Notes under the pieces: model-generated | Databases searched by the model: none | What the model was told of the DNA's origin: nothing | The model's input: the letters and a program-made list of their open reading frames with translations, nothing else | Assembly: GCA_051294375.1 (NCBI GenBank) | Contig: CM119264.1 | Span: forward strand, 9,871,275 to 9,935,274 | Reading direction: 5' to 3' | Length of the DNA: 64,000 bases | Origin: Paraspadella gotoi | Taxonomy: Eukaryota; Animalia; Chaetognatha | Position numbers and translations under genes: made by a program | Part shown: in pieces, positions 9,950 to 28,189 of the stretch | How positions within the stretch are numbered: the stretch's first letter is position 1 | Layout: each line of letters begins with the position of its first letter

Positions 9950-12900
9950 AGGAAGTTGCGCACACCTGAGTGATGTGTCTTGGGCCCACGGAGGAATCCC
10001 GCTCTTGTAGGCGGGTAACCAATATGGTAAGAGTGTCGGATTTTTGAATGGATATCACGAATTCTAAAACTGAAGGTCAGGATCGTAGATCGTCAATCGT
10101 TTTTTCAGCAGAAGTTAACCACGATCTTCGACATTCTTTTGAAACGAAAAGCTCAAAGAACTTTTCCAGGCGGAGCCAAATCCAATTGGCTCAGAGGGGG
10201 AAATCACACCCATCCGTAAGGGCGTGTGTTAGCATCCAACAGGATCATAAAACGGACTTACCTCTGATATGGCGCAAAAACAGGACGAGACCGATTGGTC
10301 CTATAAGGGTTATATCCGCGCCCAGTGACTGGATTGCGTCACTGAGGGTCGGAGCCCCCCAAAGCAACACGTGAGATGCCCCATTGCCCAATGGGATCAC
10401 AGGGGGCAACCCGGCTGTTTGCCATATCTCGTCTCTTATCTTTTATTTGCTACAACTCGTAGGCAGCGTACGACCTGTTTGTCCTTCCCTTGATCTGGGC
10501 AATTAGACCACTTATTGTCTTAACTTCCGGCGTGTAAGGCAACTCAATTCTGTTTCGATTATTATGGATCACGAAAGGAGTAAGCATGTACTAGTGCAGT
10601 CACGTGGATAACATTACAAGACTTGTGTAATCGTGCGCGTTTTCACCAATTGCACAAGAATTTAATAACTGAAGAATTTCATGGACGATACTGAGAATTT
10701 GCCGAGTTCCATTTTATATTAAAAACTGGCAAGAGTAGTCCTGTAAATCGCCTTTATTTTGGTACTTGTGTTAATACAATATACGGTGAAGTCATTGACC
10801 ATATAGAAATACGGTCGGCGATCAGAAAAAAATGTGGTATTTATCTTCGGTAGTTATTACTTGATTAGTTCTCTAAGTCAATTTATTGTTTACCACAAAT
10901 ACTAAGTAATACTTAATAAGAGCCTTGTCTGTGCTCAAGTGTAGCTCAGGTTATCAGTCGGGAAATGGCATGCATGAAAAACTTGAATTCTTTAACTTGT
11001 ATTCCTGGTTTTCCTCTTTTTCTCTCTTTTCGTCATGTTCTTGGTTCTTTCTCAATCCTTATTAGTCGATCTGGTTATTTTTATTTTGTACGTCTTTAGG
11101 TAGTTTCGAGCGCTGTAACTGTACTTGAGACATAAGATTGGACGCTCTTCGCCTCGTTCTGATTTCATTCATGCATAATTCGACTCAAGAGATTTAGAGA
11201 TTTCAAGAAGATTCAATTTTTTTTTCGAACGTTTAATTTATAAGGGGAAGGGCCGGCCCGCCCTGGAAAACGCGATGACTAATCCGAGTATATTCTGGCT
11301 ACAGAAATCAGCGGTCAGTCATGCCCTGTTATGAATGTTTATGAATAGATTTCCCCCGCCCCCGAGATAGTAATTATAGGTATACTTATCCCAGCGTCGG
11401 AAACCCGTTTTTTTTTCACGAACAGATGACTCAATTCTACAATTAATAGACCAAATAAAAAATAACAAATATTAGTAAAAGATGAAAAATAAGTACAAAT
11501 AAGCTATAAGGGTCAAAGCTTTATCACGCATAAAGTTGCAAATTTAGAGCACTCACTTGAAATATATTGAGGGAGAAAAGATGTGGGGACTGTGGACAAT
11601 GACATGACATAACAGATGACTTTGAACATGAAATTACAGGAGAATCATTATTGAAATTGGTACAACCAATATATAATTGTATAGTTCTCATTGATCGTAA
11701 AAGTTTTAATAAAAATAAGCTATCTTGCCCGACCTTAGAATATAGACAGGGGCTTTGGTGGTTTAAAGGCCCGACTTCATACACTGCTTACATTGATAAT
11801 TGAACAGAATCATTAACAGCAGGAGAATGCCCTGACAAGGCTATTTCAGAAATCAAGCTCTCTGCACACGCTCTCAGCACAAACTGCTCATCAACTCCTT
11901 CACATCGCTCACAAACAGTCTCGTTGATATCACGTTGTTCCCCAGCATGTACTTGGGTTATATTATATCAGCATATGATCAAGTTTAATAATGATACGGC
12001 CATAATTTTTGATATAATATTTCAAAGAATGTTTAATTGGTATGAAATATATTATAATTCAACAAACAATTCACAGGGTTTGGGCAGACATGATGAAAAA
12101 AGGTTTATATAATGGAGGGCATGAATACAGAGAATAGAGGTTACTTGAGATGATAAAGATTGAGAGATGAGATTTCAGGTGGTAAGCGGTCTTGAATATA
12201 TATCATCGAGAGGAATTCACAATTCAAGAAAGAAAAGAGAAACGAAAGGGCTAAAGCAGGATAAATCAGACCAATCGGAGATAAGATGCCGACACGGAGA
12301 TACCAAACCGGGAATAAATCTCACCATCATCGCTCATTGGGATCGAATAACCAGTGGCGCACAGGGCCTATGGTAGGAATTATATGATACTGATCTAGCA
12401 AAACAATGGAACGTTGTCTGTCATGCTAGGCCGGAATGATAATCCTCGCTTTGGAGAATTGGGGGTAACATAATATGGCTCACGTGGTCAACAAAATGTT
12501 TATGATATCAGCTGGTGAGCGAGTCGTTAATTTTTCTATTCCTGGGGGATTGGATTTTTTCTCCTTTTTGATTATATTTGCATTTTCCGAGAGAATTTCA
12601 ATATCGTCGAAACGAAAGCGATCGGTTTAATAAATTTTTCATCCTGGTAAGAAAAAAAATACAAGAAAAAATACTTCTATAAAAATAAAAAACGCTCAAG
12701 ATAAAATTCTTTACTTTTTTTGGTAAGAGGACATTGTCTTGTATTACTCGTTAAGGCCGTCAGTTTCAAATTAGGAATAATGAATCTTTTTTTTTCCCAA
12801 ACCTACCTCATAGACCTTTGTACCTCGTTTCTCAGTGGTGGGAAATTCACTTGAAAAGACAATATTTAAGTAGAAATCCATCAATCGAATGCGAAGAATA

Positions 12901-15900
12901 TACAATTTTTTTTTTTGGATTTCTAACTATAAATATAATATGTAACAAACCATAATTGTTTAGACGCTTGCCGCGTTTAAGAGAACCATCAATTGCTTGA
13001 GAGAGCTTTCAAAGAGTAAATAATTCTGGTTTTGGAAAGATTGTATATAAAGTATGGGGGTTTCAGGAGGTTCGACCCCTTTGCAATATATTTTGCCTTT
13101 CATCAAAAGTGCACAGAAGTGATAAATCTACTGAATTCCATAATTAGATCTAATTATTTTTTATTTCTCCTTAATTACCATATTATTATATTCCTACTCC
13201 AGTAGTTCTTATCTCAATAATCTTATATTTCTTATACTTAAGATCATATACAAAAAATAAAACTCTTTTACCTAACATATTCCTAATAGGTAGGGGTAGC
13301 GCAACATCAAGGGGGAAAAGAGGCAGAAGCACCAAAAAAATATTATCACAGGGCGAGTACATGCTAACAAAAAATTTACTTAAGTGTATAAAAAAAATAA
13401 ATGTAGATATGAAAAAAAAGACTTTCTTTCGTTGTTGTTATTTGGCGTTTATTGAGACTAAAGACCGAAATCTCTTTATACAATTCAACTTTTTAAGGTG
13501 CATACAAGTTTCGGCTTTCATTCAAGCCTCTCATCAGTTGAATGAAACCAAAACACTTGTATGCACATGTTAAAATAAAAATCGTTGATGTTAAAAGATT
13601 TCGTCTTTAATCTCAAATTAAAAAATTTAAAATTTAAACCAGAAATATTTTTAATAATAACTATAATTGAGTGTCATATATAAATTTAAGCAAAACTTTA
13701 TTTTAATTGGTTTGTAAAAAATAAAAAAAATTCCTTGAAAATTTAATGTGCTTTTAAATTTTTTTACTAGTATCAGATTGACCATAATTTTCTAAATCGT
13801 ATTGACCTTCTCCCCTCCTAAAAGAGAGTTTATTCTGGGTCTGTAGCACCCACAAGAAATGGGTCCTTTTTGGGAGAAAAACGACCTAATTCCTGCTACT
13901 TTATTTTTCTAAACTAATTTAGTTTTAATATCTAATGATTAACTCATAATCTTTTATCAAATTACCCTTTACTGAATAATTCGCTTTTAAAAGCCTAATC
14001 TGACTGTGCATTAGAGATTTACGTTAATCTAAAAAACTAAAACACCATATTGATTATACATGTTAAACCCTCACGATTAAACGCTTTAATAAACTAATGA
14101 GCGAGAAACAACATTAATTGCCATAAACCAAGTTAGATTACGCAAGAAAGAAAGACTCCCATAGACTAAATCCCAGAATACACAAGATAAATGGGTTCGA
14201 CGAAGATAACAACCAATTTCTTGTAACTGTGATACCCTTTAATTTTATGGGTTTTGTTAATAGTTTATTATAACTAATTTAAACCTCTAATCGGGGAGGC
14301 AGGAAATGGAGGCGCTTTCGAAAAATAGTTAAAAAACTTAATCTCTGTATTTTTTTGGGTAACACAACCTCAGACCACCCTTAGTAATTTTTATTCCTTG
14401 GAATAAAATGGCAACAATCAAGCTATATTCTCAACATGCGTTCTTAATTGGCAATTAGGACTTAGTAAACGGATGTTTACACCACCGCTCAATTACTTAA
14501 CGCGGAATCTCTTTATTTAAGAAGGATAGGTTGGTTGGCTTTTATGCGTCCTTATTGGATGCACTTCGCCGTCTCCTCGGATCTACTCTGCTTGGAAGAT
14601 TCATTTTTCCAAATATAAAATCATGTTATCCTACCTAATTTCTTCGGAAATTGGGATGTTGCGATGGTCAAATGATCGCATTGCATCTAGTTGGGTTTGG
14701 GAAATGTTGCTTTTGATGATCAGCATTTATAACGATTGAAGGTACTGCCACTATGATTAATTGGTCAACTGGATTAGTCGTTTCATAGTCCATTAAAGTC
14801 AGCAAAACAAATGTGCTTGTTCATTTTTTGAATAATGAATGAATGAATGATGAATGATGATGTTAATGAATGAAATGAAAATTGTTTATGTATATTGTAA
14901 CAAATTTTTGAATTTTGCTCGTAGTAAAAAAATATTTCTTAAATGAGTAGTATATGGTTTATCATTAGCATTAATAGTGTATCTTCAAACTTTTTAGCGT
15001 CTAAAACAAATATTTTTCTAATCATAATCTTTTGTAACATTCAATAATAAAAATGGTCTTTTCCAAGTATGTATACTTTTCCGCACTTTTAAAAAAAAAT
15101 TATATTTCAAAAAACATTTTTCCCCCCCATTTTCCGCCCGCTTTCTTCCCAACGTCTTAATCTTTTCGTATACCGCACATTGACATTTTATGACATGATG
15201 CCCTCAATTATTATAAATATATGTATCCTCATTAATGAAATTTATGAACAAATGCATATCTCATTTTTTTAATTTTATGGCCTGGCATCCCTCAATCATT
15301 TAAATTGATGACATTGCATATTTGGATTTTAAAGTAATTCTAATAGAATTTCCACGGTGAATATTGCCCAACAGCAAATTTTCTTCTCAAAAATCTTAAA
15401 TTTGCTTCACGTTTTTTCTCGAGTCCATGGCCCGCAACTTTTGGCTACAAACGTCCCGTCATCAATTCTTACTTTTGGACGAACGATTTGGGGGACGAAA
15501 ACTCTGGTGTTTGCAACCGAAGATCCGTTATGGTTCTTTTGCCAAAAAAACCTGACTTCGAAAAAAATAATAATTGGGGTTGGATTTTGGCGGAATTAGC
15601 GGGGATATGGTTTTCATTCAATAATCACTGGTACTAAATTGCCAGTGCGCTCCTTTTTAATCAAAAAGCAACGAAGGAGAGGAGCTGCTAGATTGGTTCA
15701 ATCTTCTGCTCCTGAGTCAAGGAGGAACAATGAAAAATTTTTGTTTCGGGGGGCGGGCTAAAGGCGGGCGACCTTGTTGCTGGATTTAGAATATTTGGAA
15801 ACTAAAATTAAACTCTAGTGGACAATGATCCTCTAAAGTCCGATAAAAAAAGTTTTATTTCTCAGGGAAATCACATTATGTCATTATCTCAAATTCTTGT

Positions 15901-20243: not shown

Positions 20244-20839
20244 AAAAAGTTTTTTGAAGATATAATAATGGTCTTGAGCTGATGGTTTTACTCATTGAGC
20301 CACCGACTGAAGGTGACGTGCTCCTTAATGGGGTGAACTTATTGCAATGCCTACAACCATGAGATAAAAAAGAATTTTAAGCGGCACCTATTTTCTTAAT
20401 ATCTTAACATATTTTTAGTTAAATCACTAAATCGAGAAACGTAATCTAAACTGAATGTTTTCATTTTCTTCCTCTTCCACATCCCCTTCCTCGATTGTTT
20501 TCATCCTCGTCATTCTTCAAGTATTTTTTTTTTCCGCGTGAAAAGAGAAAAAAGTTGGTAAATGAAGATTTTCCTCATCCGCAAGCGACGATGAGAACGA
20601 CGACGACGACGCCACCTCGTGGGAAAAAAAAAGATAATTTGCGAGGAGCGTAAATCTCGCGTCTTCTTTCGGCGCGCCTTCGTGACGTCATAAAAACGCG
20701 TCATTGTTACGAGACTGGCGCTCGAGGGTTGGGCGAACTCTTGAGTTGGGCTGGCGACGTTACAAGAGCATTGGCGGGCGAGATTTTGCGAAAGCTCGAG
20801 AGATTAAAAGAGATGAAGATGTCCGAAATATTATGCTCG

Positions 20840-21095
20840 TGTGGCGGTATATTCACACCGCCTCACGTCCACCCACCTTTCAGCCAAATCTCATTGGCTC
20901 AGAGGGGGAACACACCATCCCAGGCGTAGTGTTCCATCCACAGTCCTAATGACTTCCCTCTGCGTTGGCAAAGCGAGACCGTCCTAGGGTAACCGCGCCA
21001 GTGACTGGAGGCGTCACTGAGGGTCGGAAGCCCCCAAAGCCAACAGTGAGATGCCCATCCCAATGGGCATCACAGGCAACCCGGCTGTTGCCATA
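20840..21095 (+). repeat. 5' LTR (256 bp), highly structured
   Basis: Matches 21289-21543 with roughly eight small differences by eye. Successive stems are GCGGT/ACCGC, GCCAA/TTGGC, CAGAGGG/CCCTCTG enclosing GGAACAC/GTGTTCC and AGTC/GACT, the twister domain, GATGCCC/GGGCATC and GGCAAC/GTTGCC. Confidence 0.9.
20964..21044 (+). ncRNA. Twister ribozyme candidate, type P5 (copy 1); predicted cleavage U20990|A20991
   Basis: Elements in order: P5 GUUGGC/GCCAAC; P2 GCG/CGC; L1 GACCG; short P1 UCCUAGGG; UAA cleavage motif; GC; P3 CAGUGAC/GUCACUG; A; P4 GGG/CCC; L4 UCGGAAGC. Pseudoknot T1 pairs L4 CGG with L1 CCG, and T2 pairs GC with the L4-terminal GC. Order and conserved nucleotides follow the twister consensus. 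Deviations are a very short P1 and a C-A mismatch at the top of P2. Confidence 0.8.
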
Positions 21096-21097
21096 AG

Positions 21098-21110
21098 TGG
21101 TGAGCCTACT
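21098..21110 (+). other. Primer-binding-site-like motif TGGTGAGCCTACT
   Basis: Begins with TGG (complement of tRNA 3' CCA) two nt after the 5' LTR. It resembles Arg-type (TGGCGAGCC) and Trp-type (TGGTGACCC) PBS; the primer tRNA was not determined. Confidence 0.55.
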
Positions 21111-21131
21111 ATCGAACACGCAACCTTCTCA

Positions 21132-21191
21132 GGGTACGCTACGACAAACGCCTATGCCCCTGGGGTACGCTACGACAAACGCCTATGCCCC
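21132..21191 (+). repeat. Internal 29-bp direct repeat x2 (period 31)
   Basis: GGGTACGCTACGACAAACGCCTATGCCCC at 21132-21160 and 21163-21191. Confidence 0.95.
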
Positions 21192-21288
21192 CACAACTCG
21201 CGCTCTCTCTCTCTCCCACTATGGTAACAGTCTTGTCAGACACCTCTCAGCGCTTGAGGAACCTGAGTGATGTCTTGGCCCGGGATCC

Positions 21289-21543
21289 TGTGGCGGTATA
21301 TTCACACCGCCTCACGTCCACCATCCTTCAGCCAAATCCATTGGCTCAGAGGGGGAACACACCATCCCAGGCGTAGTGTTCCATCCACAGTCTAACGACT
21401 TCCCTCTGCGTTGGCAAAGCGAGACCGTCCTAGGGTAACCGCGCCAGTGACTGGATGCGTCACTGAGGGTCGGAAGCCCCCAAAGCCAACACGTGAGATG
21501 CCCCATCCCAATGGGCATCACAGGCAACCCGGCTGTTGCCATA
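21289..21543 (+). repeat. 3' LTR (255 bp)
   Basis: Direct repeat of 20840-21095, followed by the TSD CTCG. Confidence 0.9.
21410..21490 (+). ncRNA. Twister ribozyme candidate, type P5 (copy 2); predicted cleavage U21436|A21437
   Basis: Identical to copy 1 except one substitution in the P3 loop (TGGATGC vs TGGAGGC). Confidence 0.8.
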
Positions 21544-22576
21544 CTCGTCTCTTATCTTTTTATTTGCACCGCGCGTACACCGTCTGTCTCTTGATCTGCC
21601 CCACTTATGTCTTAACCCGGGTGATAAGGCAATCAATTCTGTTCATATTTGGTAGAAAGGTAAGATGTACTAGTGCAGTCACGTGATCACTTGAAAACGC
21701 GTTCACATGACCAGAAATTTAATACTGAAGAATTCATGACATACTGAATCACTGATTGCCGAGTCATTTTATTTAAAACTGGCAAGGTATCTGTAAATGC
21801 CTTTTTGTACTTGTGTATAATAATCGTGAAGTCATATGACCATATAGAAATACGGTCGCGCGATCAGAAAAAAAATGTGGTATTATTCGGGTTATTCTTG
21901 ATTAGTTTAGTCAATATTTTACAAATACTAAGTAATACTAATAAGATGCTTGTTGTGCATAAGTGTAGTCAGGTTATCAGTCGGGAAATGCATCCATGAA
22001 AAAACTTGAATCCTTTAACTTGTATTCCTGGTTTTCCTCTTTTTCTCTCTTTCTCGCTCATGTTCTTGGTTCTTTCTCAATCCTTGATTAGTCGATCTGT
22101 TATTTTTACGTTTTAGTTTCGCTGTACTTGAGACTAGATTGAAACGTTTCGCTCGTTCTGATTACATTCATCATAATTCGACTCAAGAGATTTAGAGATT
22201 CAGAGATTCAAGTTTTCACGTTTAATTTATAAGGAACGGGCGCCGCCTGGAACGCGATACTCCGAGTATATTCTGGCACAAAATCAGCGGCAGATCATGC
22301 CCGTTATGATTTTATGAATAATTTCCCCCCCCCGAGATATATATAGTATATATACCATTTTTCACACAATGACTCAATTCTACAATTAATAAGACCCAAA
22401 TAAAAAAATAACAAATATTAAGTAAAATGAAAATAAGTACAAATAAGTAAAGTCAAAGCTTATCACGCATAAGTTGCAAATTTAGAGATATTGATATATT
22501 GAGGAGAAGTGTGGACTGTGGACATGACATGACATAACAGAGACTTGAACATGAATTTACAGGAGATCATTATATG

Positions 22577-22775
22577 AAATTGGTACAACCAATATAAAAT
22601 TTATTCATTAATTTAATAAATAAGCTATCTTGCCCCTGAATCTAGACAGGCTTTGGTGGTTTAAGGCCTTCATCACGCTTACATGATAATGACATAGCAG
22701 GTCCCTGCAAGCTTTCAATCAAGACTCTCTCACACTCTCACACTCTCTCACTCTCTCACTCGCTCACAACAGTCT
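22577..22775 (+). repeat. Short dispersed repeat, also at 26219-26380 (direct) and ~25975-26076 (inverted, with (TGAA)n tail)
   Basis: Shared GAAATTGGTACAACCAATAT...GCTATCTTGCCCCTGA...TTTAAGG...CAAGCTTTCAATCAAGACTCTCTCAC(ACTCTCTC)n. The reverse complement GGGGCAAGATAGC occurs at ~26029-26041. Confidence 0.75.
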
Positions 22776-24260
22776 CGTTTATTCACTCCCAGAGTACTTG
22801 GGATATATTATAATATGATAATTTAATAATATAATAATTTGATATAATATTTCAAAGAATGTTTCAATTGTATGAAATATATAATAATCAAACAAATTCA
22901 GGTTTGCAGACATGATAAAAAGTTATGGGCATGAATAAGAGAATAGAGTTACTTGAGATGATAAAGATTGAAGAGATGAGATCAGGTGGTAAGCGGTCTT
23001 GATATATATCATCGCAGAGGAATCAAAATCAAGAAAGCTAAATCAGATCAGCCAATCGAGATCCGACACGAATCCACCGGAAATAAAATCTAACTCTCTC
23101 ATTGGTCGATAAACCAGTGGCACGGGCCAATGGTGGAATTTCATCTGTCTGCAAAAACTTTGTCTGTCATCCGCTTGAATTGTATAAATTGCCACGGTCC
23201 ACAAATGTTATGTATCAGCGCGCAATTCTATTCTGGATTGATCCGAGAGAATTCAATATCGTCGAAACGAAGAGCGATCAGGTTATAAAATTTTTCATCC
23301 TGGTAAAAAAAAAAATAAAAAAATACTAAAAAAAAACGCAAAAAATTTTACTTGTAAAGAAGGCCTTACTGTTAAGCCGTCAGTTTCAATTAGAATAATG
23401 AATCTTTTTTTCAAACCTCACTTCCTCGTCTCATTGAAACTTGAAAGACTATATTAAGTAAATCTCAAGCCAGAATACAATTTTTTTGATTCTACTATAA
23501 ATAATAACCAACCATAATTGTTAGACCTTCCCTTTAGCGAACCATCAATCTGAGAGGCTTTCAAAGAAAGTAAAAATTCTGTTTGGAAGATTGGTATTGT
23601 TCAGGATCCCCTTTGCAATTTGCTTTCATCAAAAGTCAAAAGTGATAACTACTTCCTATTAATATTTTTATTCCTCTTCCTATTTTTATTCCTCTCAGTA
23701 GTCTTCTCATATCTTTTCTTTCTTAGTCTTAATCTCTTTTCCAACATATTCTAATAGTAGGGGTAGCCGCACTCAATGGGGAAAGCCAAAAATTTACAGC
23801 GAGTACATGCTCAAATTTCTTTTTAAAAAAATATGTGATTAAACTTTCTTTCGTTGTGTTTGGGTTATTTGAGATTAAAGACGAAATCTTTTACATCAAC
23901 TTTTTAAGGTGCATACAAGTTTCGGCTTTCATTCAAGCCTTCATCAGTTGAATGAAAGCCGAAACTTGTATGCACATTTAAAAATAAAAATCGTTGATGT
24001 AAAAGATTTCGTCTTTAATCTCAAATAAAAAAAATTTAAAATTTAAAACCAGAAAATATTAAAATAACTATAATGAGTGTCATATATAAATTTAAGCAAA
24101 CTTTATTTAATTGTAAAAATAAAAAAAAATTCCTTGAAAATTAATGTGCTTAAATTTTACTAGTACTGATTGACCATAATTTCAAATCAGTATTGACCCT
24201 TCTCCCTCCCTAAAGAGAGTTTATTCTGGTCTGTAGCACCCAAAAGAAAATTGGGTCCTT

Positions 24261-25820: not shown

Positions 25821-26382
25821 GTCAATTGCCAGAGAGACATTAAATTTTTTTGGGGGGGGAGGAGGGGAACTTGGTGCTAATTAGATTGAAATAATTAAAT
25901 TAAAATGTCAATGTTCTAATGTCGATAAAAAAATTTTATTCTCAGGGATCACATTATGTCATTATCTTGTGAGAGTGATGAAGGCCTTAAACCTCCACAC
26001 TGTTGAGTACACAGCCTGTCCAAAGTCTGGGGCAAGATAGCATATTTATTGAATGAATGAATTAATGAATGAATGATTTTTATTTTGGTGGTACTAATTT
26101 AATATATATATGTCGAGCGAAATTTTTTTTATGATAGCCATCTGTGAAATTTAAAAGCTGATAATCGATTCTTTGTTTACTTAATTAATTTTCCTTTTAC
26201 ATACATTTCTCATCTAATGAAATTGGTACAACCAATATGGAAGTTATCCATTCATTTAATTAAGAGGCTATCTTGCCCCTGACTTTGGACAGCCTTTGGT
26301 AGTTTAAGGTCTCCATCACTCTTACAAGCTTTCAATCAAGACTCTCTCACGCTCTCTCACTCTCTCACTCTCTCACTCCCAG

Positions 26383-28189
26383 AGGATCTGTCTTCACTAT
26401 CAATGACGTTTTTGTGTGTGCTTGGTCTATCAGCGAGTATCAAACTATAATTTCTATTTCATTTTCTACATTTTGTTTGGCTAAAGCGGCAATAGATAAC
26501 CGGCATTCGAATGAACCATTATTAATTTCAGGAAATTTAATTTTCCTTTCAAATGTTTGCCAAACAATAGGTTTACTGCAATGCATCGTCGGCTTGACTG
26601 TATTTCTCTATATCTTAAGTATAAGTAGCCTAAAAGTTTCTCCTTGGATCCTTATGGCCATTCTGTTTATGCCTTTAAGGGTTTTTACAACATCTGAACT
26701 GAATATGCTTTTTCGAGGATTATATAAAAACAGCAATCATCATCCGGGGATTAATTACGGAAAACCAAACTTTCTACAAATGATCTTAGCGCCGTGGGTC
26801 ACTATATCTCTTTTTTCTTTGGTTGTCGCTATTAATTTGATCGATCTTTTAGACTTCAGCGCAATTTACCAAAAAACGAGTTTTTGGAAAATCGTACGCG
26901 ATTATTCTCCTTTGATTAGATTTGCATATAGATTTACGTCTTTCCGAAATCCATTATTGAGAAAATACTCTCGTTTTTGCACGAGTGGGATTCAATTAAA
27001 TTCTCGATCACTAAAATTGTTGGGAAAGATTTTTAAATATGAAAAGGATTGCAATAATCTTAATCCTTTTAGATTTGGATATTTAATACAGAATTATAGA
27101 ACCGGAAATTATCTCCTAATGCGACCCGATTTTGGGTTGTACACGATTTTACTGCTGATAGATACATCTCTTAGTATTCTGTACTCCACTTTATTTTTGA
27201 TTGTAAAAAAGTCAGTGAAGGAATTCTTATTGGCGTTATTTTCTATTTTAAGTTCCTTTATTATCATTTACCTCAGTCTTTATCATTTTATATTTCACGT
27301 TAACATCGCGCACATTGGCAGAAATACCATTCGCTCAAGTATTTCCAGTTACCTTTTGCTAAAAACCCCAAGTAAAGCTATTAAAGACGATGATGCTTTT
27401 TTTCTAAGCCAACTGTATGAATCTCATTGTCACCTTTTTAAATTTTTAAGCTTAATATCCAAGTATTCTTCTTTAGTAACGATGATAGTATTGGTATTTA
27501 ACGTGGGAAATTTATATTCGAATCTCAACAAATGGGCATTACGTTTTTTATTTTCTATACTGGGGGGCATAGTTTCTTTCATCATTCCCATTACAGTATA
27601 TATTTTTATATATATTTTTCTGGAACAAAATACATTACGGTACAAAGTATTAGAAAAGCCATTCAACTGCGTTACATCGTTTCAAGAGTGTGCCGAACCC
27701 CTTCTCATTAAATTAATTTCTTTTTTCTACTTAAAATTCAACTTTTTTTATATATTTGGTTTATCATTACTGCCTTTTTTCAAATTTGTTTGTACGATGA
27801 TACCTTGCAATAAACGAAGCCGTAATATCGGCCTCAGAGTCCAAGCAATTCGAATTATTTTGGGTTGTCTCATATTTACTTTTGTTTATAAATTCACGAT
27901 GCATGTCCAACGGCCAAGCGAGCAAATTGATCACCTTATATACGCGAATCTGTCCCATCCTAGACGCGATCTCTTGGCTCGGAAGGCAAGAAATTCTTTC
28001 GAAAGCGAGTTCATTTCGCCCATTTACGATTTGTTGTACCCGTTGTTTATGGAGCAGAATGTCATTTCAAACGCAACGGCTTTTGTCGATGAAATAAACG
28101 AGGTTTTCAATAGATTTATCCAAAAAGGTCCCAACCTTCTAGTACTTTTATTTTTATTTATCCCTGCTGTAGTGATCTTGAGTTATTGA
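26383..28189 (+). CDS. XK-related protein, exon 3 (long multi-TM terminal exon); spliced CDS 2409 nt = 802 aa
   Basis: Acceptor ctctcactcccAG| is phase 2 and matches the exon 2 donor. Continuous with the 591-aa ORF, which has many hydrophobic segments. Stop TGA at 28187-28189; ATTAAA at 28241. Confidence 0.85.

What the first reader, a model, noticed from the sequence alone, without database searches (positions are those of the whole stretch)
20982..20990. Minimal P1 is a palindrome (CCTAGG): possible dimer-dependent twister
Seen: P1 is only UCCUAGGG, too short for a stable hairpin, but it contains self-complementary CCUAGG in both LTRs (20983-20988 and 21429-21434). Known: minimal hammerheads of animal tandem repeats use a short palindromic stem-loop to cleave as dimers. 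Inference: the two LTR twisters may domain-swap through a 6-bp CCUAGG duplex. Cleavage would then be efficient in the two-LTR precursor and weak in the one-ribozyme circle, protecting the circle.
Basis: inference. Interest (0 to 1): 0.7.

Follow-up and report, generated by a model that had tools for sequence, protein, structure and literature searches.

The report
Palindrome-switched twister in LTR mini-element
A 704-base jumping element, present in very many copies, carries in each end repeat a twister-type self-cutting RNA fold whose first stem is shrunk to a self-complementary 8-mer; folding models predict that a lone copy misfolds and that two copies pairing through this palindrome would help switch cutting on, but cutting, pairing and circles are all untested.

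Summary
In detail: UCCUAGGG (20982-89, 21428-35) with CCUAGG is the whole P1 of a P5-permuted twister fold in both LTRs of a high-copy 704-bp non-coding element with a 4-bp target duplication. This P1 is unusually small: 8 nt against 15-26 nt in 31 natural P5-type twisters fetched here. Its conclusion still gets modelling support. Without pseudoknots, the unpaired P1 strand is predicted to invade L4/P4 and lock a lone ribozyme or circle in an off-rod (9.1 kcal/mol gap; 1.5 if that strand is barred). A fully strand-swapped pair in the two-LTR RNA buries the strand in an 8-bp duplex, 3.6-8.6 kcal/mol better than two separate twisters. Against: CUAG is also a YNMG tetraloop, a palindromic loop arises by chance 1 time in 16, the pseudoknot stacks alone could pay the monomer gap, and family-wide conservation of the palindrome stayed uninformative. 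Dimer-assisted cleavage about 45%, monomer-sufficient 35%. It works like the dimer-cleaving hammerheads of amphibian retrozymes; I found no dimer-dependent twister or twister LTR retrozyme in print.

The parts
20836..20839 (+). left 4-bp target-site duplication (CTCG)
   Evidence: same 4 bases at 21544-21547
20840..21095 (+). 5' LTR, 256 bp, ends TG...TA
   Evidence: 96% identical to the 3' LTR; family copies end sharply here with unrelated flanks (table 7)
20964..21044 (+). P5-permuted twister fold, copy 1: P5 20964-69/21039-44, P2 20973-75/20994-96, P3 20999-21005/21013-19, P4 21021-23/21032-34, T1 20979-81/21025-27, T2 20997-98/21030-31
   Evidence: all pairs check in both LTRs; weak Rfam twister hit; one C.A mismatch at the base of P2 and one A.C at the base of P4
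20982..20989 (+). minimal P1 of copy 1: self-complementary 8-mer (6 Watson-Crick pairs plus 2 G.U as a duplex; 2 bp plus CUAG tetraloop as a hairpin)
20990..20991 (+). predicted cleavage site U/A, copy 1
   Evidence: by alignment to the twister consensus; cleavage untested
20987..21033 (+). predicted off-rod: 20987-90 pairs with 21030-33 and 20993-95 with 21025-27, blocking T1, T2, P4 and the cut site
   Evidence: probability 0.88-0.98 in the precursor and 0.93 in the circle, pseudoknot-free model
21096..21288 (+). 193-bp non-coding internal region; TGG two bases after the LTR (PBS-like, primer tRNA not identified); 29-bp direct repeat; no polypurine tract before the 3' LTR
21289..21543 (+). 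3' LTR, 255 bp
21410..21490 (+). twister fold, copy 2 (offset 446)
   Evidence: RF03160 hit 21432-21505, E 0.013
21428..21435 (+). minimal palindromic P1 of copy 2; predicted cut between 21436 and 21437
20991..21436 (+). predicted 446-nt unit released by two cuts (candidate circle)
   Evidence: inferred; folds better than 100 of 100 shuffles, z -2.93
21544..21547 (+). right 4-bp target-site duplication (CTCG)

Best explanation
Each LTR of this high-copy non-coding element holds a twister-type fold whose P1 is only a self-complementary 8-mer, and this 8-mer likely acts as a switch: in a lone copy it is predicted to mispair and hold the ribozyme off, while in a two-LTR transcript the two 8-mers would pair and help both ribozymes fold and cut. 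Steps. Shown in sequence: LTR pair, 4-bp target duplication, twister helices and conserved bases, palindromic P1, many dispersed copies. Computed (nearest-neighbour, no pseudoknots): the free P1 strand plus the U before the cut pairs with L4/P4 to form an off-rod; a swapped pair, with P2, P5 and T1 made between the two LTRs around an 8-bp P1 duplex, removes that competitor. Inferred: transcription through both LTRs; strand exchange between identical repeats; two coupled cuts releasing a 446-nt RNA; ligation by a host ligase, perhaps helped by the off-rod holding the ends together; the one-ribozyme circle and solo LTRs staying mostly uncut; copying by an autonomous LTR element. I expect enhancement by pairing, not strict dependence.
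For: P1 linker 8 nt against 15-26 nt (median 22) in 31 of 31 distinct natural P5-order twisters with perfect P2 and P4, out of 102 loci; 8 of 8 of those tested pass RF02684. Gap between best fold and twister-competent fold 9.1 kcal/mol against median 2.9, max 8.6 in the 31; it falls to 1.5 if the P1 strand and the U are barred from pairing. Swap energy -13.4; 1 of 31 comparators as strong (median -2.8); natural loop among the best 9 of 256. Swapped pair beats two separate twisters in 12 of 12 temperature and transcript-end settings by 3.6-8.6 kcal/mol, and in 20 of 20 shuffles of the internal region by 3.7-6.8. No easy window for a monomer during transcription: gap 9.1-12.4 in 18 of 18 growing transcripts. 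Circle: off-rod 0.93, gap 9.1. Precedent: the axolotl retrozyme hammerhead with one pair and a palindromic tetraloop cleaves 6% in an hour alone and much better in dimeric constructs (PMC7229834 passages); self-complementary tetraloops favour duplex over hairpin (PMC8675289 passages).
Against: Twisters lacking P1 cleave at almost wild-type rate (PMC5408937 passages), and P1 length, stability and defects had no effect in a pool of natural type-P1 twisters (PMC11662667 passages). CUAG fits the YNMG tetraloop class and CCUAGG is one of 16 special tetraloops in the energy set, though 58 of 256 loops score better there. The model omits pseudoknots: T1 and T2 stacks alone give -9.1 kcal/mol per core, equal to the monomer gap. 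The swapped pair is still 10.0-14.6 kcal/mol above the best fold at 37 C, more than the 9.1 for folding one twister alone; the palindrome duplex has probability 0.001 in the unconstrained precursor. Comparators were chosen for perfect P2 and P4; given the same two mismatches their median gap is 6.3 and 3 of 31 reach 9.1; they are prokaryotic or phage, untested for activity, and 12 of 31 share one P1 loop motif. The rank of 9 in 256 is largely built in for any palindromic loop. A plant LTR retrozyme cleaves 60% with one ribozyme (PMC4918200 passages); the hatchet palindrome drives dimers but is not needed for cleavage (PMC7357161 passages). No covariation for the palindrome is in hand.
Confidence: 0.45

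Rival explanations
1. Each twister cuts on its own. P1 has shrunk to a 2-bp stem capped by a YNMG tetraloop because P1 is dispensable, and the palindrome is a by-product. Tertiary folding in magnesium overcomes the off-rod; any protection of the circle comes from the off-rod or bound protein, as proposed for plant LTR retrozymes.
For: P1 dispensable; P2 and P4 mismatches tolerated, A.C in P4 costing about 0.14 in fraction cleaved; CUAG is YNMG with a C-G closing pair; chance of a palindromic loop 16 of 256; T1+T2 stacks -9.1 equal the gap; plant retrozyme ribozymes work singly and are blocked in the circle by alternative pairing.
Against: The mini-twister had a free end and no competing strand; here the P1 strand is predicted to mispair at 0.88-0.98. 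Hairpin P1 has probability 0.00. Gap above all 31 native comparators; no co-transcriptional window in the model. The large P1 study covered type-P1 permutations only.
Confidence: 0.35
2. The ribozyme is weak or dead in both states, or needs a protein chaperone; the element spreads as an ordinary TRIM-like LTR passenger and the twister fold is a relic.
For: Below Rfam gathering score; two helix mismatches; neither monomer nor swapped pair is the best fold in the model; 8 of 9 Xenopus retrozyme dimers tested did not cleave (10.64898/2026.07.22.740005 passages).
Against: Catalytic bases and both pseudoknots are intact, with a compensatory T1 (CGG/CCG in place of the consensus CCC/GGG); of the 40 variant rows listed, those inside the fold fall at a P5 end pair and in the P3 loop only.
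Confidence: 0.12
3. The palindrome is a genome-dimerisation signal for packaging into the particle of a helper LTR retrotransposon, like the palindromes used by Ty1 and retroviral RNAs, and is unrelated to cleavage.
For: LTR-type element; Ty1 RNA dimerisation through such motifs is in print (search listing only); isolated 8-mer duplex -10.0 kcal/mol at 37 C.
Against: In the circle and precursor the palindrome's 3' half is predicted buried in the off-rod; it sits exactly at P1; 4 other 6-mer palindromes lie in the element.
Confidence: 0.08

Closest known systems
Type-P5 twister ribozyme (Rfam RF02684, clan CL00120)
   Same: Strand order with ends in P5, closed P1, UAA cut site, GA before T1, GC T2, L4 GU-NNN-AAGC, two pseudoknots.
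   Different: P1 is 8 nt against an 8-bp hairpin in the Rfam consensus and 15-26 nt in 31 comparators; T1 is CGG/CCG; below gathering score; sits in an LTR of a eukaryote-like genome.
Dimer-cleaving hammerheads of amphibian retrozymes and Penelope-like elements (HHR_Amex1, PMC7229834; PLE hammerheads as reviewed in PMC6765202)
   Same: A 1-2 bp helix capped by a palindromic loop, with two copies available in one transcript; this is what it may work like.
   Different: Different ribozyme class; twister P1 is dispensable for chemistry, so any dimer effect here would come from removing a misfold; LTR element, not tandem repeat.
Plant LTR retrozymes (PMC4918200)
   Same: Non-coding, two LTRs each with a ribozyme, 4-bp target duplication, predicted unit-length RNA whose ribozyme is blocked in the circle.
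   Different: Twister instead of type III hammerhead; smaller (704 bp, 446-nt unit); no clear PPT; host looks non-plant (microsatellite-rich, inferred); plant ribozymes work singly; circles not shown here.
Hatchet ribozyme palindromic strand-swapped dimer (PMC7357161)
   Same: Short palindrome drives strand exchange between two ribozymes.
   Different: There the palindrome is not needed for cleavage; a cautionary precedent.
T-variant twisters of Perere-3 in Schistosoma (PMC8501958)
   Same: Twister with degenerate P1 serving a retroelement.
   Different: Type P1, at the 5' end of a non-LTR element, P1 made by the flanking target duplication; no palindrome or dimer mentioned in the text searched.

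Membership tests
Twister ribozyme, P5 permutation | Stems P2 and P4 with ends in P5 and closed P1 | tested here: met
   P2 and P4 each carry one mismatch at the base
Twister ribozyme, P5 permutation | Conserved core bases (UAA, GA, GC, GU...AAGC) | tested here: met
   read against the consensus printed
Twister ribozyme, P5 permutation | Two pseudoknots T1 and T2 | tested here: met
   T1 3 of 3 and T2 2 of 2 pairs in both LTRs, T1 compensatory against the consensus
Twister ribozyme, P5 permutation | Stable P1 hairpin as in the consensus | tested here: not met
   8 nt, +1.0 kcal/mol, probability 0.00; P1 is reported dispensable
Rfam twister families (RF02684, RF03160) | Score at or above gathering threshold | tested here: not met
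   best 24.1 bits against 67.2 for RF03160; RF02684 not listed
Twister ribozyme, P5 permutation | Site-specific self-cleavage | not testable with these tools
   only contigs available; they cannot show RNA ends
LTR retrozyme | Two LTRs, 4-bp target duplication, non-coding interior, dispersed copies | tested here: met
LTR retrozyme | Hammerhead ribozyme in each LTR | tested here: not met
   no CUGANGA on either strand; twister fold instead
LTR retrozyme | PBS and PPT | tested here: inconclusive
   TGG two bases after the 5' LTR, tRNA not identified; no purine tract before the 3' LTR
LTR retrozyme | Accumulates as circular RNA | not testable with these tools
   no listed holder on record as RNA; contigs only
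Dimer-cleaving ribozymes (amphibian and PLE hammerhead type) | 1-2 bp helix with palindromic loop | tested here: met
Dimer-cleaving ribozymes (amphibian and PLE hammerhead type) | Palindrome kept, with compensatory change, across diverged copies | tested here: inconclusive
   no variant row there among 40 shown, 124 hidden; chance of no row about 0.35
Dimer-cleaving ribozymes (amphibian and PLE hammerhead type) | Dimer cleaves much better than monomer | not testable with these tools
   energy model only

The most novel reading that the evidence does not exclude
A twister that is switched off as a single copy and cuts only as a strand-swapped pair joined by a palindromic P1, inside a non-plant LTR retrozyme. 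The two LTRs would act as a coincidence detector: only full-length transcripts are cut, at both ends together, while circles, solo LTRs and host RNAs that contain one LTR stay intact.
Probability: 0.25. Interest if true: 0.8.

Novelty: new variant of a known kind. Interest (0 to 1): 0.58.

Why it matters
Dimer cleavage through a palindromic stem is known for hammerheads; searches here listed no such case for twisters and no twister-bearing LTR retrozyme. If it holds, two unrelated ribozyme classes converged on the same trick for making and protecting retroelement circles, and a genome could carry very many ribozyme copies without cutting its own transcripts. It would also give a compact natural two-copy RNA switch. 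The test is one gel.

Tried and rejected
No whole genome is held. Family copies with P1 left free: 23 metagenome matches, none similar to the element; 5 viral matches with T1 CCG/CGG, none with good P2 and P4; 5 viral matches to a family pattern, none with L4 or similarity. No RNA holder listed; run X9 is only guessed to be RNA, so it shows nothing on expression. A base-by-base view of variation at P1 across copies was not obtained; one search shows 40 of 164 rows. One contig of run X10 (organism B) spans the palindrome with only 2 other letters, both outside it, but is nearly identical and shallow, so it is no evidence of conservation; the X13 contig (organism C) has 12 other letters of which 6 are shown. 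The third in-window copy (10174-10426) breaks the palindrome but is rejected as evidence: it lies in a 2.8-kb duplicate whose flank has 173 extra, 21 missing and 11 changed bases, the pattern of sequencing noise. A co-transcriptional monomer window was tested and not supported. A kiss without strand exchange was rejected by inference from helix order. Of 102 comparator loci I kept 31 distinct cores with perfect P2 and P4; 6 further parses with 3 of 4 P2 pairs had linkers of 3-26 nt, none an 8-nt palindrome, and were not scored in Rfam; patterns fixed T1 and TAA, so other twisters were not sampled. The mini-twister paper and the PLE dimer paper are not held and are cited through reviews. The supplement of PMC11662667, with per-ribozyme cleavage values, could not be read and may bear on short-P1 behaviour. 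Earlier-finding look-ups by place and sequence were empty.

Full report
Observation. CCTAGG stands at 20983-20988 and 21429-21434 within identical TCCTAGGG 8-mers, directly before TAA. They lie in two 96% identical repeats, 20840-21095 and 21289-21543, around a 193-bp non-coding interior, flanked by a 4-bp duplication CTCG. In run X4, 13,503 contigs lay on the element, with summed depth far above the flanks (about 99), and contigs leave the repeat ends at 21096, 21288-21289 and 21543-21544 into unrelated flanks (agreement 0.41-0.44). So this is a dispersed, very high-copy, LTR-type non-autonomous element. The host is not identified; the microsatellite-rich window looks like an animal genome (inference).

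The ribozyme frame. Read against the consensus printed by Rfam, each LTR holds a twister in P5 order: P5, P2, P3, P4, T1 and T2 all pair in both copies, the core bases are present, and T1 is CGG/CCG in place of CCC/GGG. P2 and P4 each have one mismatch. Rfam scores stay below threshold. The 8-mer is the entire P1. Predicted cuts at 20990/20991 and 21436/21437 would free a 446-nt RNA, which folds better than 100 of 100 shuffles.

Is the palindrome more than chance? Partly. The two copies are one event. With a 2-bp stem, 16 of 256 loops are palindromic. CUAG also fits the YNMG tetraloop class (PMC5633025 passages) and CCUAGG is among 16 special tetraloops in the energy set, although 58 of 256 loops score better. 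To see what natural closed-P1 twisters look like, I scanned viral and genome contigs with P1 left free at 3-28 nt. Of 102 loci, 31 distinct cores had perfect P2 and P4; 8 of 8 submitted pass RF02684. Their P1 linkers are 15-26 nt. An 8-nt P1 is therefore unusual, within the limits that these are prokaryotic or phage sequences, partly related and pattern-selected.

Energetics (ViennaRNA, no pseudoknots). The P1 hairpin costs +1.0 kcal/mol. A lone twister prefers an off-rod in which 20987-90 pairs with 21030-33 and 20993-95 with 21025-27, at 0.88-0.98 in the precursor and 0.93 in the circle. The gap to the twister-competent fold is 9.1 kcal/mol, above all 31 comparators (median 2.9, max 8.6). 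With the same two mismatches placed in the comparators, the median is 6.3 and 3 of 31 reach 9.1. Barring the P1 strand and the U from pairing drops the gap to 1.5, so the free P1 strand is the cause. A swapped pair with an 8-bp P1 duplex is 13.4 kcal/mol better than two competent monomers, matched by 1 of 31 comparators. Inside the two-LTR RNA it wins by 3.6-8.6 in 12 of 12 settings and by 3.7-6.8 in 20 of 20 interior shuffles. Growing transcripts give no low-gap window (9.1-12.4 in 18 of 18). Against: the swapped pair is still 10.0-14.6 above the best fold at 37 C, and T1 plus T2 stacks give -9.1 per core before loop penalties and magnesium. In the full precursor the pair would matter if tertiary folding returns between about 5.7 and 9.1 kcal/mol per core; above that the monomer works too. 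The model cannot place it.

Literature (passages unless stated). Twisters lacking P1 cleave at almost wild-type rate (PMC5408937). P1 defects had no effect across natural type-P1 twisters (PMC11662667; supplement not readable). PMC8501958 calls P1-less cleavage inefficient and finds degenerate-P1 twisters active (section 19). The axolotl hammerhead with one pair and a palindromic tetraloop is weak alone and efficient in dimers (PMC7229834; also PMC7761336, and PMC6765202). Plant LTR retrozymes cut with one ribozyme and block it in the circle by alternative pairing (PMC4918200). Self-complementary loops favour duplexes (PMC8675289). The hatchet palindrome makes dimers but is not needed to cut (PMC7357161). 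A 2026 preprint still places LTR retrozymes mainly in plants, with hammerheads, and does not mention twisters. Nine searches listed no dimer-dependent twister and no twister LTR retrozyme; subscription papers are largely outside this library.

Conservation. None of the 40 variant rows shown falls in either P1, but 124 rows were hidden and an empty result has a chance of about 0.35. The in-window third copy is a noisy duplicate and was set aside. Unchecked notes from other genomes describe P5 twisters with palindromic P1 in Naiad retroelements; if true this would be a recurring design, but I could not test it.

Verdict. Dimer-assisted cleavage 0.45, monomer-sufficient 0.35, weak or dead 0.12, packaging signal 0.08. 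It works like the dimer hammerheads; it is not a member of them, nor of hammerhead-defined LTR retrozymes, and it misses the Rfam twister thresholds while meeting the class features by hand. New variant of a known kind; interest 0.58.

Noticed in passing
window 20836-21547: The element as a whole is a TRIM- or retrozyme-like LTR unit with a twister instead of a hammerhead, with TG...TA ends and no clear polypurine tract; this may be the larger novelty.
   Followed up: partly
window 20991-21436: In the best fold of the predicted cut unit, the last four bases pair with 21030-21033, placing the 3' end next to the 5' end (probability 0.40); could splint ligation to a circle.
   Followed up: partly
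window 10174-12993: Insertion-rich duplicate of 21330-23549 (about 75% identity, mostly extra bases), likely an uncorrected long-read segment in the assembly.
   Followed up: yes
window 21104, 21251, 21281: Many family copies differ from this copy by one-base indels in the PBS-like stretch and near the 3' LTR (table 4), so this copy may not represent the family there.
   Followed up: no
window 21132-21191: Two exact 29-bp direct repeats, 31 bp apart, in the interior; some contigs show further repeat variants.
   Followed up: no
window 20840-20900: LTR starts with a strong hairpin and has an inverted repeat holding CCAAT boxes on both strands; no TATA or AATAAA match in the element, so the transcription start is unknown.
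   Followed up: partly
L045, L047: Two phage P5-order twisters whose GC-rich P1 hairpins also give strong predicted swap energies (-13.7, -12.8).
   Followed up: no
window 26303-28189: A 628-codon stop-free frame on the + strand, hydrophobic and without an obvious repeat origin.
   Followed up: no
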